From a virus (Duplodnaviria; Heunggongvirae; Uroviricota; Caudoviricetes): DNA of 31,156 bases. Made by a program: the position numbers and the translations under genes. Where the stretch lies: IMG/VR virus record IMGVR_UViG_2778261417_000015, positions 1 through 31,156 of that record. One strand, given 5' to 3'. The notes beneath the pieces were generated by a model, which had not been told where the DNA came from, made no database searches, and saw only the letters and a list, made by a program, of their open reading frames with translations. Of the stretch, positions 2,353 through 4,669 are shown piece after piece. The stretch's first letter is position 1. Each line of letters begins with the position of its first letter.

Positions 2353-2783
2353 AAAACAGCCTCGAATTCGTCAATGTAGAGATTGGCCTTTATCAACCTG
2401 CTGCGGCGTGCGGCTTTATCCAGGCATTCCTGATGAGCTTTTTTAGATGCATGGAGAACGGCGCCGCGAGTGCAAAGACGCGTCTTTCCTTGTGGGACAA
2501 CTACTTTGGCCGGAGTTACTAAGTTGAATTGCCGATCGACAATTCCCGATTCAGTAACCCTGGTAGGAGAAGCCTCAAGACGGGCAACTTTGCCGGTACC
2601 ACGCGTGAGGTTCTTTGCGGAGCGGTTAAACTCGATCAGCGTTACGCCAAAAGCGGCGGCTATCTCAGAACCGGTGACGGGGCGGCCGCGCGTCTGAATC
2701 ATCCAGATAACTCGTTCACGGAGACCGGAGAATTGCCCGGTGCGACCGGGCCTGCGGTAGAAGGGTGTGCGTTTCATTTCCAC
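2349..2783 (-). CDS. Hypothetical protein, possible DNA-binding (144 aa)
   Basis: Intact ORF filling the gap between exo and the small gene. Basic, HTH-like central segment. Start not resolved. Confidence 0.45.
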
Positions 2784-3454
2784 TGCTCCCCGAACGTGAA
2801 GCCGATCTCCTCAAGCGCCTCGTCCATCTTCTCGATGAACTCCGGCACCATTTCGTTGAAATCGGTCATGTACTGCGGATCCCGCTCAACAACGACGTGA
2901 TGAATACCTTCGCGTTTCATGCGCGGGTCGTAGTTGGCAAAGAACCAGGCGTCTTTTCCGGTTACCCACATGCTGTATTGCACCTGAGCCATGTACGCAG
3001 ACTTGATGGCTTCGAAACCACCAAGGCGAAATTTCATGAAGTCGCGGGAGGTGAAAGGGCATTTAAGTTCAAGACCGAACCCGTTACTGCACAGGCCGTC
3101 CGGGGAACACGCGGTACGCATGCTCTCGTCACGGAACAGGATCGGTGACTCCGTGACTTTCACGTCAGTGGTGAACTCGAAGACGGTGCGGGCGTCTTCC
3201 TCGAACTGCTTACCCCAGGCCAGCGCCTTGGCGTTTACCTCTGGCGCTACACCGGTGCATACCTCGGCGAGCAAGGTGTGGAAGTAGGATATTTTCATGT
3301 CCGTCCATTTGGTTCCGGATCGAGGCTTGGAAATGACGTTGTGTACTTCAGACGCGGTTATGACACCGAGGCGCAGCCGGTGCCACGCCTCATCACCCTG
3401 TTGTATGGTGGTTATGTCGATGCCAGTCCGCGCCAGGATAATTTCTGGTGTCAT
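2774..3454 (-). CDS. exo: Lambda-type 5'-3' exonuclease (Exo/YqaJ family), 226 aa from the internal Met
   Basis: Near-colinear match to recalled lambda Exo ([13 protein letters not shown] ... [22 protein letters not shown] ... [38 protein letters not shown]). Start chosen at Met14 of the track ORF to match the lambda N-terminus. Confidence 0.85.
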
Positions 3455-3455
3455 G

Positions 3456-3743
3456 TCAGCAGTCCTTATGGTCATCCCACGGTCCGAATCCACCTACGTA
3501 AACGAAGCCTCTAGATGGATCGCTCACATGAGTTTCGCGCTGCAGTCGCTCAATTGAATTTCTGTCAATTGCCGCTTGGCGCATCTCAAGTGACTGATGC
3601 CCTCTGCGACGACCATATTGCTTCCAATAGGCAGCGCATGACTTACTGCAAAACTGTGCCCAACCTCTTTTTCGATCAGCAACGCGTGCCTTGAATTTGT
3701 CTGGGCAACACTTGCAGGTCACTTCAACGGTTTTCCCAGTCAT
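3456..3743 (-). CDS. Zinc-ribbon-like small protein (95 aa) inserted between recT and exo
   Basis: Intact ORF with cysteine clusters (CKCCPDKF ... CSKSC). Its stop lies 1 nt from the exo start and its start overlaps the recT stop. Confidence 0.5.
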
Positions 3744-4669
3744 GCTGCCGCCTTCTGTTTGAGGAAGCCGAGAGCTTTCACAGCTTCGATTTGGGTCAAC
3801 TCCGTTGATTCGCGAATATCACGACGGAAGATTTTGGAGCAAAGAGGAAGCAGGTCGTCATCCCACGTCTTATTCATCGTAATAAGCGCGTCGTTAATTT
3901 CAGTTATGATATCGCTATCCGCTGGAGTGACGTCGCGTTCAGGTTGGCGCTCTGCCGCGAAGTTGATACCTTCCTCGCCTTCGGTGTTAACGTAGTCGAT
4001 AGCGGCATCCAGACGCTCACGGCGCGGCCAGTACTTGGCTGCTTGCTTCACGACCGTCTTGAGGATCATTTGCTCTTCGTCAGTTATCCACGGGCATGAT
4101 GTACCTTTGTTCTTGTAGGCTTTCCACGCTTCTGAACGATCACGAATCGCGTATATATCAGCTATTCGCATCGTGTGAGTGAGGTAATCACTATCGTCAG
4201 TCTTGATAACAACATAAGCACCGACGATTTCGCCGCGTTGCTCAGCGGTGTCGAAGTCGTTGTAGATGTGAACTGGAGGCTTATCGAGACCTTCACGTCG
4301 GAACTGGTCGTTCTTGCGGACGATTGCTGACTGGCACCACTTAATCGCGCCAGATTGCTGGGCAATGTGCATTAGGCCCATGTAGCTTATATCGAGACAG
4401 ATTGAGCCTTTACGCGGCACCAGATAAGCCAGCTTTTGCGCCGGGTTCAGTGAGATGCCGATCCCGGCGACATTCATTACAGCGCTGCGGGTACTTACCG
4501 GGTTAGCTACAGCAATCTTCGCCAGATAGTCATTATTAGCGAAGATCTGCATCGCGAACTCTGATTCGCGTTTGAAGTTCATTGAAGGCTCAGAACAAAC
4601 CTGCTCAAAGTCTGCTTTTAGTGGGTTAACCAGGCCAAAGACCTGGTCAATGAGTTGAGTTGCCATCAT
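3740..4669 (-). CDS. recT: RecT-family single-strand annealing recombinase (309 aa)
   Basis: RecT-like length and motifs. It sits in the bet position between gam and exo. Confidence 0.8.

What the first reader, a model, noticed from the sequence alone, without database searches (positions are those of the whole stretch)
2774..4669. Hybrid recombination module: RecT in place of Bet, with lambda-type Exo and a zinc-ribbon ORF between them
The gene order gam, recT, small cysteine-cluster ORF, exo combines a RecT-family annealase with a lambda-type exonuclease rather than the cognate Bet. The 95-aa zinc-ribbon-like ORF is tightly coupled to both and may be an accessory factor.
Basis: partly seen in the sequence, partly recalled or inferred. 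Interest (0 to 1): 0.4.

Follow-up and report, generated by a model that had tools for sequence, protein, structure and literature searches.

The report
Phi80-type recombination module with zinc-finger insert
This is a prophage DNA-recombination gene set of a known (phage phi80) type: its RecT-type strand-annealing protein carries phage lambda Bet's exonuclease-docking tail, and a small, strongly conserved, uncharacterised zinc-finger gene lies between the annealing gene and the exonuclease gene.

Summary
On the minus strand lie gam (4666-4962), a RecT-family annealase (3740-4669), a 95-aa Cys-cluster ORF (3456-3743) and a lambda-type exonuclease (2774-3454, 83% identical to lambda Exo). The junctions are ATGA, ATGA and TGAcATG.

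The "hybrid" is only half a hybrid. The annealase core is RecT family, not Bet. Its last ~75 residues are ~80% identical to the lambda Bet C-terminal domain, which docks onto lambda Exo, and the hydrophobic contact residues are kept. The same chimera exists in phage phi80 (78% identical), where it works in vivo, so RecT plus Exo is already known.

The small ORF is a real gene (median dN/dS 0.065). It lies on a 289-bp insert bounded by CATGAC repeats, which phi80 and lambda lack. It encodes a basic FCS/YacG-like zinc finger, a helix and a conserved GFGPWDDHK tail. The same finger forms tandem arrays on HNH nucleases, so it probably binds DNA.

All 43 close homologs examined lie in or next to recombination modules: mostly Bet-Exo, and also ahead of RecE-like nucleases or RecT. 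It is therefore not specific to recT-exo pairs. An accessory role in recombination is plausible but unproven.

The parts
4666..4962 (-). Lambda-type Gam (RecBCD inhibitor), 98 aa, equivalent to the short GamS form. Its stop overlaps the annealase start as ATGA.
   Evidence: Pfam PF06064 E 8e-50, with the match starting at residue 15 of the longer ORF 4666-5004. Only a weak N-terminal match to phi80 GamL.
3974..4669 (-). Annealase N-terminal core (about residues 1-232): RecT-family single-strand annealing domain.
   Evidence: PF03837 E 1e-28. TIGR00616 'rect' 62.2 bits (cutoff 52.65), no bet_lambda hit. Listeria RecT structure 7UB2 E 2e-4 over residues 17-268. 78% identical to phi80 rec.
3743..3964 (-). 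Annealase C-terminal domain (residues 236-309): lambda Bet (Redbeta)-type three-helix domain that binds lambda Exo and SSB.
   Evidence: About 80% identical to lambda Bet 182-255. PDB 8TFU E 3e-30 and 6M9K E 8e-24. DNA homology to lambda bet starts at window 3955. Contact residues L223, I227, F249, L250 and Q252 are kept.
3456..3743 (-). 95-aa zinc-finger protein (PHROG 17137, function unknown).
   Evidence: phrog_17137 E 4.5e-63. 48 clusters of homologs. dN/dS 0.02-0.10. AF2 model mean pLDDT 72.
3609..3737 (-). Zinc-finger domain of the small protein (residues 3-45): C10-x2-C13...R26-G27-W28...F31-C32-S-K-S-C36. Basic (residues 1-50 have pI about 10).
3459..3509 (-). Conserved C-terminal tail of the small protein ([16 protein letters not shown]). 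Predicted disordered; a candidate docking motif.
   Evidence: Conserved in close homologs and in about 40%-identical ones (P0038, P0041, P0052, P0055, P0063). pLDDT about 50.
2774..3454 (-). Lambda-type 5'-3' exonuclease (Red alpha/Exo), 226 aa.
   Evidence: 83% identical to lambda Exo. PDB 6M9K_A and 1AVQ E 3e-134. YqaJ PF09588. Helix E contact residues are T90, V91 (L in lambda), F94, T95. The R28, D119, E129 and K131 positions are identical in the alignment.
3455..3744 (-). 289-bp insert relative to the phi80 and lambda annealase|exo junction, bounded by the direct repeat CATGAC (3739-3744 and 3450-3455).
   Evidence: DNA alignment of window, phi80, lambda, Klebsiella phage ST15-VIM1phi2.1 and L018. 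Sequence read.

Best explanation
The region is a phi80-type Red-like recombination module, gam - annealase - (insert) - exo, transcribed leftward and translated as a coupled unit.

Shown: the annealase is a natural chimera. A RecT-family annealing core is joined at about residue 235 to the lambda Bet C-terminal domain. Structural and mutational work shows that this domain wedges onto helix E of lambda Exo and also binds the SSB tail.

Inferred: this domain is what lets a RecT-type core work with a lambda-type exonuclease. Exo resects the 5' strand at a double-strand end and hands the 3' overhang to the annealase docked on it, while Gam keeps RecBCD away.

Shown: a 289-bp insert sits exactly at the annealase-stop/exo-start junction. 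It encodes a strongly constrained 95-aa protein with a basic FCS/YacG-like zinc finger, a helix and a conserved acidic-aromatic tail. It is coupled to the upstream gene by ATGA and to exo by TGAcATG.

Inferred, least certain: the protein is an optional accessory of phage recombination modules. Its zinc finger would bind DNA, as the same finger presumably does in arrays on HNH nucleases. Its tail would dock onto a partner, and it would be made in step with the nuclease to assist or protect DNA-end processing.

My confidence is about 0.9 for the chimera and docking-domain account and about 0.4 for the accessory role. The figure given for this field is a compromise between the two.
For: Chimera:
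- The core is RecT family, not Bet.
- Residues 236-308 match lambda Bet 182-255 at about 80% identity, E 1e-37, and PDB 6M9K and 8TFU.
- Exo-contact residues L223, I227, F249 and L250 (Caldwell 2019, PMC6393309) are kept as L/V, I/L, F and L in all eight annealases that sit next to a lambda-type exo. These span three different core lineages. Two RecTs that pair with a RecE-like nuclease or with MuGam lack the motif.
- Heterologous RecT plus lambda Exo does not recombine dsDNA (PMC5052646; PMC6393309). The phi80 RecT, 78% identical here, is active in vivo (PMC3945230).

Small ORF:
- Median dN/dS is 0.065. Window versus L018 gives dN 0.036 and dS 2.06.
- All 43 close homologs lie in or beside recombination modules of at least four architectures: Bet-small-Exo, RecT::CTD-small-Exo, small-DUF3799/exoVIII-RecT and small-RecT-MuGam. 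The junction sequences differ, but most are still tightly coupled to the downstream gene: TGAcATG, TGAaATG, ATGA, TGATG, TAAtATG.
- No other gene was seen at this junction in the records checked.
- The zinc-finger domain recurs as arrays of 4-9 copies in proteins that also carry an HNH domain. In the three read in full (P0049-P0051), the array is N-terminal to it.
- The N-terminal half of the protein is basic, pI about 10.
Against: - No experiment or complex model links the small protein to Exo, the annealase or DNA.
- Lambda and phi80 recombine without it, so it is dispensable.
- One locus (L043) carries it disrupted.
- More distant homologs that keep the tail (about 40% identical; for example L050 and L058) lie next to unrelated genes. 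Only about 12 of 99 immediate neighbours of distant homologs are nuclease or recombination proteins.
- The co-occurrence sample is dominated by related Klebsiella and Enterobacter prophages, so the 43 loci are not independent.
- In the window Exo, helix E residue L91 is V. This is conservative, but its effect on binding is untested.
Confidence: 0.55

Rival explanations
1. The small ORF is an autonomous 'moron'. It would be a small DNA- or host-protein-binding factor, for example an anti-defence or host-takeover protein. It would ride in the early-left operon at a permissive gene junction and play no part in the Red reaction.
For: It is optional: absent from lambda, phi80 and CobraSix and present in only 3 of 5426 complete E. 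coli genomes, although 105 carry a related exo region. It behaves as a discrete 289-bp cassette with CATGAC repeats. Tail-bearing homologs at about 40% identity lie next to unrelated genes in other phages. The zinc-finger family is widespread in phages of many kinds.
Against: Every close homolog is in or next to a recombination module, through several independent junction types and three nuclease or annealase partners. A published survey of 325 lambdoid genomes notes that unknown genes placed neatly inside Rec modules are very rare (PMC12315714). No other insert was found at this junction.
Confidence: 0.3
2. A literal hybrid: a RecT annealase works with a lambda-type Exo without any cognate protein-protein interface. 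The two enzymes would act independently, or the zinc-finger protein would bridge them.
For: The annealase core is RecT family and the nuclease is lambda-type. The small ORF lies between them.
Against: The annealase carries a Bet-type Exo-binding domain with the contact residues intact. Phi80 and CobraSix have the same pair with no small ORF. Most copies of the small ORF sit with Bet-family annealases, which need no bridge.
Confidence: 0.04
3. The small ORF is a decaying remnant of a zinc-finger HNH homing endonuclease (its DNA-binding domain only) and now has no function.
For: The same finger forms arrays on HNH nucleases. There is a weak match to an HNH PHROG (phrog_15471, E 1e-4). The insertion is cassette-like.
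Against: Strong purifying selection along the whole length, including the non-finger tail. No HNH remnant lies next to it. Length stays at 92-98 aa across dS > 2.
Confidence: 0.04
4. The small ORF is a YacG-like inhibitor of DNA gyrase.
Confidence: 0.04

Closest known systems
Phage phi80 (Lula) recombination module: exo - rec (RecT-like) - gamL - agt/mog (NC_021190)
   Same: Same gene order and strand logic. The annealase is 78% identical over its full length, including the Bet-type C-terminal domain. The exo region is 89% identical in DNA. Homologs of the downstream 144-aa gene and of the upstream Agt/Mog gene (51% identical) are present.
   Different: Phi80 has no gene between rec and exo (ATGA overlap). 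Phi80 uses GamL, whereas the window has a lambda-type Gam.
Phage lambda Red system (exo - bet - gam)
   Same: Exo is 83% identical. Gam is the same Pfam family. The annealase C-terminal domain is about 80% identical and homologous at the DNA level (71%). The annealase stop and exo start are coupled.
   Different: The lambda annealing core is Bet family (TIGR01913), while the window core is RecT family (TIGR00616). Lambda has no small ORF.
Klebsiella lambdoid phages such as ST15-VIM1phi2.1, and E. coli W21 and FDAARGOS_1277 prophages: exo - 95-aa hypothetical - bet - gamL
   Same: The same 95-aa protein (93% identical) in the same position with the same junctions.
   Different: The annealase core is a Bet-family lineage. 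The gene is annotated only as hypothetical, or not annotated at all (FDAARGOS_1277).
Zinc-ribbon/FCS-type fingers of phage HNH endonucleases and stand-alone zinc-ribbon proteins next to them (Xu and Gupta 2013, PMC3592412); FCS zinc finger (PF06467); YacG
   Same: The CxxC...(F/Y)CSxxC finger. Arrays of the same domain occur in proteins that also carry an HNH domain. Stand-alone small versions occur next to nuclease genes.
   Different: The window protein has no nuclease domain. It has a distinct helix and a conserved WDDHK tail. Its neighbours are PD-(D/E)XK exonucleases, not HNH or terminase genes. No curated family model reaches its cutoff.
Known accessory proteins of phage recombination modules (P22 Arf and Abc1, lambda Orf)
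   Same: Small, non-essential genes in or near the module that modulate recombination (PMC12315714).
   Different: No sequence relationship was detected. Any resemblance is one of role only, and here that role is hypothetical.

Membership tests
RecT family of single-strand annealing proteins | Scores above the curated cutoff of the family models (PF03837; TIGR00616) | tested here: met
   PF03837 100.4 bits (cutoff 24). TIGR00616 62.2 bits (cutoff 52.65). The equivalog for E. coli Rac RecT (NF007351) scores 70.7 bits against a cutoff of 296, so the protein is not an ortholog of Rac RecT.
Lambda Bet (Redbeta) family | N-terminal annealing domain matches TIGR01913 bet_lambda | tested here: not met
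   The window annealase has no TIGR01913 hit. Lambda Bet scores 169.5 bits, and the Klebsiella-type 281- and 286-aa annealases score about 130 bits.
Lambda Bet (Redbeta) family | C-terminal three-helix Exo/SSB-binding domain with hydrophobic pocket residues L223, I227, F249 and L250 | tested here: met
   Residues 236-308 are about 80% identical to Bet 182-255. PDB 6M9K and 8TFU match at E 8e-24 and 3e-30. All four pocket residues are identical. Binding itself was not tested.
Lambda exonuclease (YqaJ / PD-(D/E)XK) family | Full-length homology to lambda Exo, with the catalytic D119, E129, K131 and the 5'-phosphate-binding R28 | tested here: met
   83% identity over 226 aa, and these positions are identical in the alignment. 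PDB 1AVQ and 6M9K_A E 3e-134. PF09588 108 bits. The catalytic role of these residues is from my knowledge of lambda Exo.
Lambda Gam family | Match to PF06064 above the cutoff | tested here: met
   167.6 bits against a cutoff of 25.
SynExo (exonuclease plus annealase) two-component recombinase | Adjacent, co-oriented exonuclease and annealase genes with a specific protein-protein interface | tested here: inconclusive
   Gene adjacency and conservation of the interface sequence are shown. Physical interaction cannot be tested with these tools. The phi80 homolog is functional in vivo (PMC3945230).
FCS-type zinc finger (PF06467) / YacG (PF03884) | Match to the family model; four Zn ligands in a CxxC...CxxxC arrangement | tested here: inconclusive
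YacG gyrase inhibitors | C-terminal gyrase-binding tail after the finger | not tested
   No YacG sequence was aligned here. The tail [16 protein letters not shown] does not resemble the YacG tail as I recall it.
PHROG 17137 (function unknown) | Full-length match to the profile | tested here: met
   E 4.5e-63, residues 1-95 on profile positions 1-95.

The most novel reading that the evidence does not exclude
The 95-aa zinc-finger protein is an unrecognised, portable accessory subunit of phage SynExo recombination modules. It would be made in step with the exonuclease, bind DNA ends or ss/ds junctions through its finger, and use its WDDHK tail to recruit or block a partner. Candidate partners are the nuclease, the SSB-tail pocket of the annealase C-terminal domain, and a host end-processing enzyme. 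If so, it would change the efficiency or host range of Red/RecET-type recombination, and it could be added to recombineering systems.
Probability: 0.3. Interest if true: 0.6.

Novelty: new variant of a known kind. Interest (0 to 1): 0.4.

Why it matters
1. Partner specificity. Lab swaps of RecT with lambda Exo fail, so this natural pair looks paradoxical. The sequence resolves the paradox: partner specificity sits in a separable ~75-residue C-terminal domain. Nature has grafted that domain onto at least three different annealing cores, all next to lambda-type exonucleases. A 2025 survey of lambdoid Rec modules suggested such domain shuffling but left it unanalysed (PMC12315714). It also suggests a design rule for recombineering: graft the Bet C-terminal domain to pair any RecT core with lambda Exo.

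2. A candidate new module member. The small zinc-finger gene is one of the very few unknown genes found neatly inside Rec modules. It is highly constrained and travels between module types, which makes it a cheap, testable candidate for a new accessory recombination factor. If it turns out to be an unrelated passenger, the finding is ordinary.

Tried and rejected
- The phi80 genome paper (Rotman 2012, PMC3510586) is not held, and the supplements of PMC12315714 are not held. I could not check whether the phi80 chimera or this small gene is described there.
- A profile search of the small ORF against PDB sequences gave nothing meaningful (E 0.31). NCBIfam gave no hit. Pfam gave only a sub-threshold zf-CRD hit. 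Literature searches found no paper on the protein.
- Fold searches returned only weak finger matches and uncharacterised phage proteins, DUF2256 proteins and HNH proteins.
- The species-representative genome scan found only one close homolog (Dryocola sp., L085, again RecT::CTD - small - exo) and otherwise finger-only relatives. The family is strain-variable prophage cargo.
- The 'alkylmercury lyase' listed beside exo and RecT in Klebsiella phage RothC looked like a different insert at this junction. It is the 144-aa gene downstream of exo, and RothC has exo directly next to RecT. The idea that the junction is a general insertion hotspot is therefore not supported.
- dN/dS pairs involving L042 are invalid because of a one-codon offset at its start, and were ignored.
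- Antisense and overlapping ORFs in 2774-4669 (for example 2765-3148+ and 3515-3694+) were treated as spurious. The minus-strand genes have strong family matches and fill the region.
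Full report
**1. What is in the sequence**

Window 2774-5004 carries four co-oriented minus-strand genes.

- Gam. The ORF 4666-5004 matches lambda Gam (PF06064, E 8e-50), but only from its residue 15. The likely gene is therefore 4666-4962, 98 aa.
- Annealase. The ORF 3740-4669 (309 aa) matches the RecT family (PF03837, E 1e-28; phrog_148, E 3e-69).
- Small ORF. The ORF 3456-3743 (95 aa) matches only PHROG 17137, a family of unknown function, at full length (E 4.5e-63).
- Exonuclease. The ORF 2774-3493 matches YqaJ/lambda exonuclease (PF09588, E 6e-31). It is 83% identical to lambda Exo from its 14th codon, so the true gene is 2774-3454, 226 aa.

The junctions are tight. 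Gam/recT overlap as ATGA, and so do recT/small ORF. The small-ORF TGA is one base from the exo ATG.

**2. Is the annealase RecT or Bet?**

It is both, in different parts.

- NCBIfam places the protein in the RecT family: TIGR00616 scores 62.2 bits against a cutoff of 52.65, and there is no hit to the Bet model TIGR01913. Lambda Bet hits only TIGR01913.
- Against solved structures, residues 17-268 match Listeria RecT (7UB2, E 2e-4).
- Residues 236-308 are about 80% identical to lambda Bet residues 182-255 (BLAST E 1e-37).
- These residues match the crystallised Bet C-terminal domain at E 3e-30 (8TFU) and 8e-24 (6M9K, the complex with lambda Exo).
- The homology is visible in DNA: window 3955-3745 matches the 3' end of lambda bet at 71% identity.

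Caldwell et al. 2019 (PMC6393309) showed that this domain binds helix E of lambda Exo through a pocket formed by L223, I227, F249 and L250. Mutating L223 or F249 abolishes the complex. All four residues, and Q252, are identical in the window protein. On the Exo side, T90, F94 and T95 are identical and L91 is V.

**3. The docking domain tracks the nuclease, not the annealing core**

I aligned ten annealases taken from loci that carry the small ORF, together with phi80 and lambda.

- Eight sit next to a lambda-type exo. They come from three different core lineages: RecT-type, lambda-Bet-type and a Klebsiella Bet-type.
- All eight share the C-terminal motif, with L/V, I/L, F and L at the four pocket positions.
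- Two RecTs that sit with a RecE-like nuclease (L023) or with a Mu Gam-like protein (L040) lack the motif.

Mixed RecT plus lambda Exo pairs fail in dsDNA recombination in the laboratory (PMC5052646; PMC6393309). Domain grafting is therefore the simplest account of why this natural pair can work.

This is inference from sequence. No binding was measured here.

**4. The arrangement is not new**

- Phage phi80 has exo directly followed by a RecT-like 'rec' gene, then gamL and agt/mog. Its rec protein is 78% identical to the window annealase across both domains.
- Enterobacter phage CobraSix, the best overall relative of the window (93% identity over 18% of it), has the same arrangement.
- De Paepe et al. 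2014 showed that the phi80 RecT promotes recombination in vivo (PMC3945230).
- Zheng, Casjens et al. 2025 list this annealase type as working with Exo in phi80 and with RecE elsewhere. [quoted passage not shown]

The hybrid is thus known. The domain-level explanation given here appears to have been anticipated but not spelled out in what I could read.

**5. The small ORF is a real, constrained gene on a discrete insert**

- A search of 5.8 billion proteins found 48 clusters of homologs, nearly all 78-98 aa, from Enterobacteriaceae sources.
- Across 23 distinct 288-nt alleles the median pairwise dN/dS is 0.065. Window versus L018 gives dN 0.036 at dS 2.06, that is 96% protein identity with saturated silent sites.
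- Relative to phi80 and lambda, the window has exactly 289 extra bases at the annealase-stop/exo-start junction. They are bounded by the direct repeat CATGAC (3739-3744 and 3450-3455).
- The same insert with the same ends is present behind a Klebsiella Bet-type and a lambda-Bet-type annealase.
- One locus (L043) has the gene broken in two. Lambda, phi80 and CobraSix lack it. It is therefore dispensable.

**6. What the small protein looks like**

- Finger. The conserved positions are C10 and C13, then R20, D23, R26-G27-W28, F31, C32-S33-K34-S35-C36: a CxxC...FCSxSC finger. Residues 1-50 are strongly basic (13 K/R against 3 D/E, pI about 10).
- Model. AlphaFold (45-sequence alignment, mean pLDDT 72) gives a beta-hairpin, two short helices around the cysteines (pLDDT 81-89), a long helix at residues 52-72 and a low-confidence tail.
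- Spread of the finger. A profile search of 1.84 billion representative proteins found 2434 clusters at E < 1e-3. Most are stand-alone proteins of 60-110 aa. Dozens are proteins of 250-520 aa with 4-9 tandem copies of the finger. Of the three read in full (P0049-P0051), all end in HNH motifs; Pfam confirms an HNH domain in P0049 and P0057 and gives a sub-threshold HNH hit in P0050. That architecture implies the finger is a DNA-binding module. Xu and Gupta 2013 (PMC3592412) describe zinc-ribbon domains on phage HNH nickases and stand-alone zinc-ribbon proteins beside them.
- Tail. [16 protein letters not shown] is conserved in close homologs and in full-length relatives of only about 40% identity. 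This is typical of a short docking motif.

**7. Where the gene is found**

I examined 80 IMG/VR loci and 24 species-representative genome loci. For the 43 loci whose small protein is at least 60% identical to the window's, one search gives the following.

| Flanking genes | Loci |
|---|---|
| After an annealase with the Bet-type C-terminal domain, ahead of a lambda-type exo where the contig extends that far | 38 |
| - Klebsiella-type Bet core | 32 |
| - RecT core, as in the window | 5 |
| - lambda-type Bet core | 1 |
| Directly upstream of an exonuclease VIII-like DUF3799 nuclease followed by RecT (L023, L041, L042) | 3 |
| Directly upstream of RecT followed by a Mu Gam-like gene (L040) | 1 |
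| One gene away from a DUF3799 nuclease (L044) | 1 |

These assignments rest as well.

The 3' junctions differ (TGAcATG, TGAaATG, ATGA, TGATG, TAAtATG), but all except L044 remain coupled to the next recombination gene. The gene has therefore been carried into several kinds of Rec module and stays tightly joined to them. That argues for a functional link. It also shows that the gene is not specific to recT-exo pairs.

There are counter-indications.

- The sample is dominated by related Klebsiella and Enterobacter prophages.
- Relatives at about 40% identity sit among unrelated genes.
- Among 99 immediate neighbours of distant homologs, only about a dozen are nuclease or recombination proteins: PDDEXK_1 (3), RecT (2), AAA_23 (2), and RdgC, YqaJ, ERF, MutS_I, YbcO and HNH. 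Most have no Pfam family.

The gene is rare. It occurs in 3 of 5426 complete E. coli genomes, whereas 105 have a related exo region. Only six deposited phage genomes, all from Klebsiella, carry a close copy.

**8. Most likely mechanism**

Gam blocks RecBCD. Exo resects double-strand ends. The RecT-core annealase, docked on Exo through its Bet-type C-terminal domain, is loaded on the 3' overhang and anneals it to a complementary strand. The steps are established for lambda and inferred here from 80-83% identical parts.

The small protein is produced in step with Exo through coupled translation. I think it most likely binds DNA through its basic finger and docks on a partner through its tail, modulating or protecting end processing (about 0.4).

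The main rival is that it is a passenger with an unrelated target (about 0.3). The minor rivals each rate about 0.04 or less, for the reasons given in the rival entries: a bridge for a truly non-cognate pair, a dead remnant of a homing nuclease, or a YacG-like gyrase inhibitor.

**9. Verdict**

The RecT-plus-Exo combination is a known phi80-type module, and a grafted Bet docking domain explains it. The zinc-finger insert is an uncharacterised, well-conserved and mobile addition to Rec modules, and it deserves a simple recombineering test. Interest is moderate.

Noticed in passing
window 4970-5974 (-): A 334-aa protein rich in Glu, Ala, Lys and Arg (phrog_1376) is 51% identical to phi80 Agt/Mog, which the phi80 record calls 'anti-toxin for Gam' and pairs with GamL. 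Here it sits upstream of a lambda-type Gam, not GamL. If Mog really modifies GamL specifically, its presence with lambda-type Gam is unexplained.
   Followed up: partly
window 4666-5004 (-): The mechanical Gam ORF (112 aa) overlaps the upstream gene by 35 nt. The Pfam match begins at residue 15, and homologs in related loci are 98 aa, so the real start is probably the ATG at 4962 (the short GamS-like form).
   Followed up: partly
window 2349-2783 (-): A 144-aa gene (phrog_1680, no Pfam family) overlaps the 3' end of exo by 10 nt. It accompanies exo in phi80 (gp35), CobraSix, RothC and most related loci, but not in lambda. Public records name it inconsistently: 'regulator', 'alkylmercury lyase' or hypothetical.
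   Followed up: partly
window 1646-2352 (-): Downstream of the module lie a DUF1317 protein (2194-2352; lambda orf60a is also annotated as a DUF1317 protein) and a phage Dam-type N6-adenine methyltransferase (1646-2197; PF05869, E 6e-59). In phi80 the record annotates a dam gene (damL) in this region as a frameshifted pseudogene.
   Followed up: no
L002 (E. coli FDAARGOS_1277, NZ_CP070103.1) 3682-3966: The RefSeq annotation leaves a 285-nt gap between exo and bet. That gap holds an intact copy of the 95-aa gene (95.5% DNA identity). The gene is sometimes missed by automatic annotation, so database counts of it will be underestimates.
   Followed up: yes
L043 4001-4287: One IMG/VR prophage carries the small gene split into two ORFs (51 and 42 aa) between an intact bet and exo. 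It is a natural knockout, which shows the gene is dispensable at least in a resident prophage.
   Followed up: partly
P0049, P0050, P0051, P0057 (proteins from the representative search): Proteins of 250-520 aa consist of 4-9 tandem copies of the same CxxC...(F/Y)CSxxC finger plus an HNH nuclease domain. They are a natural zinc-finger-array nuclease architecture in bacterial or phage sequences.
   Followed up: partly
L044 about 4300-4330: In the one locus where the small gene is not coupled to a downstream recombination gene, its stop codon is followed about 25 nt later by a short (TG)n run and a non-homologous 362-aa gene. This suggests a recombination scar.
   Followed up: no
L040 3591-5664; L041 and L042 upstream ORFs: In the modules without lambda Exo, the gene just upstream of the small ORF is another unknown family (phrog_3486; phrog_856 in L023), also ATGA-coupled to it. 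It may be a further uncharacterised companion in Rec modules.
   Followed up: no
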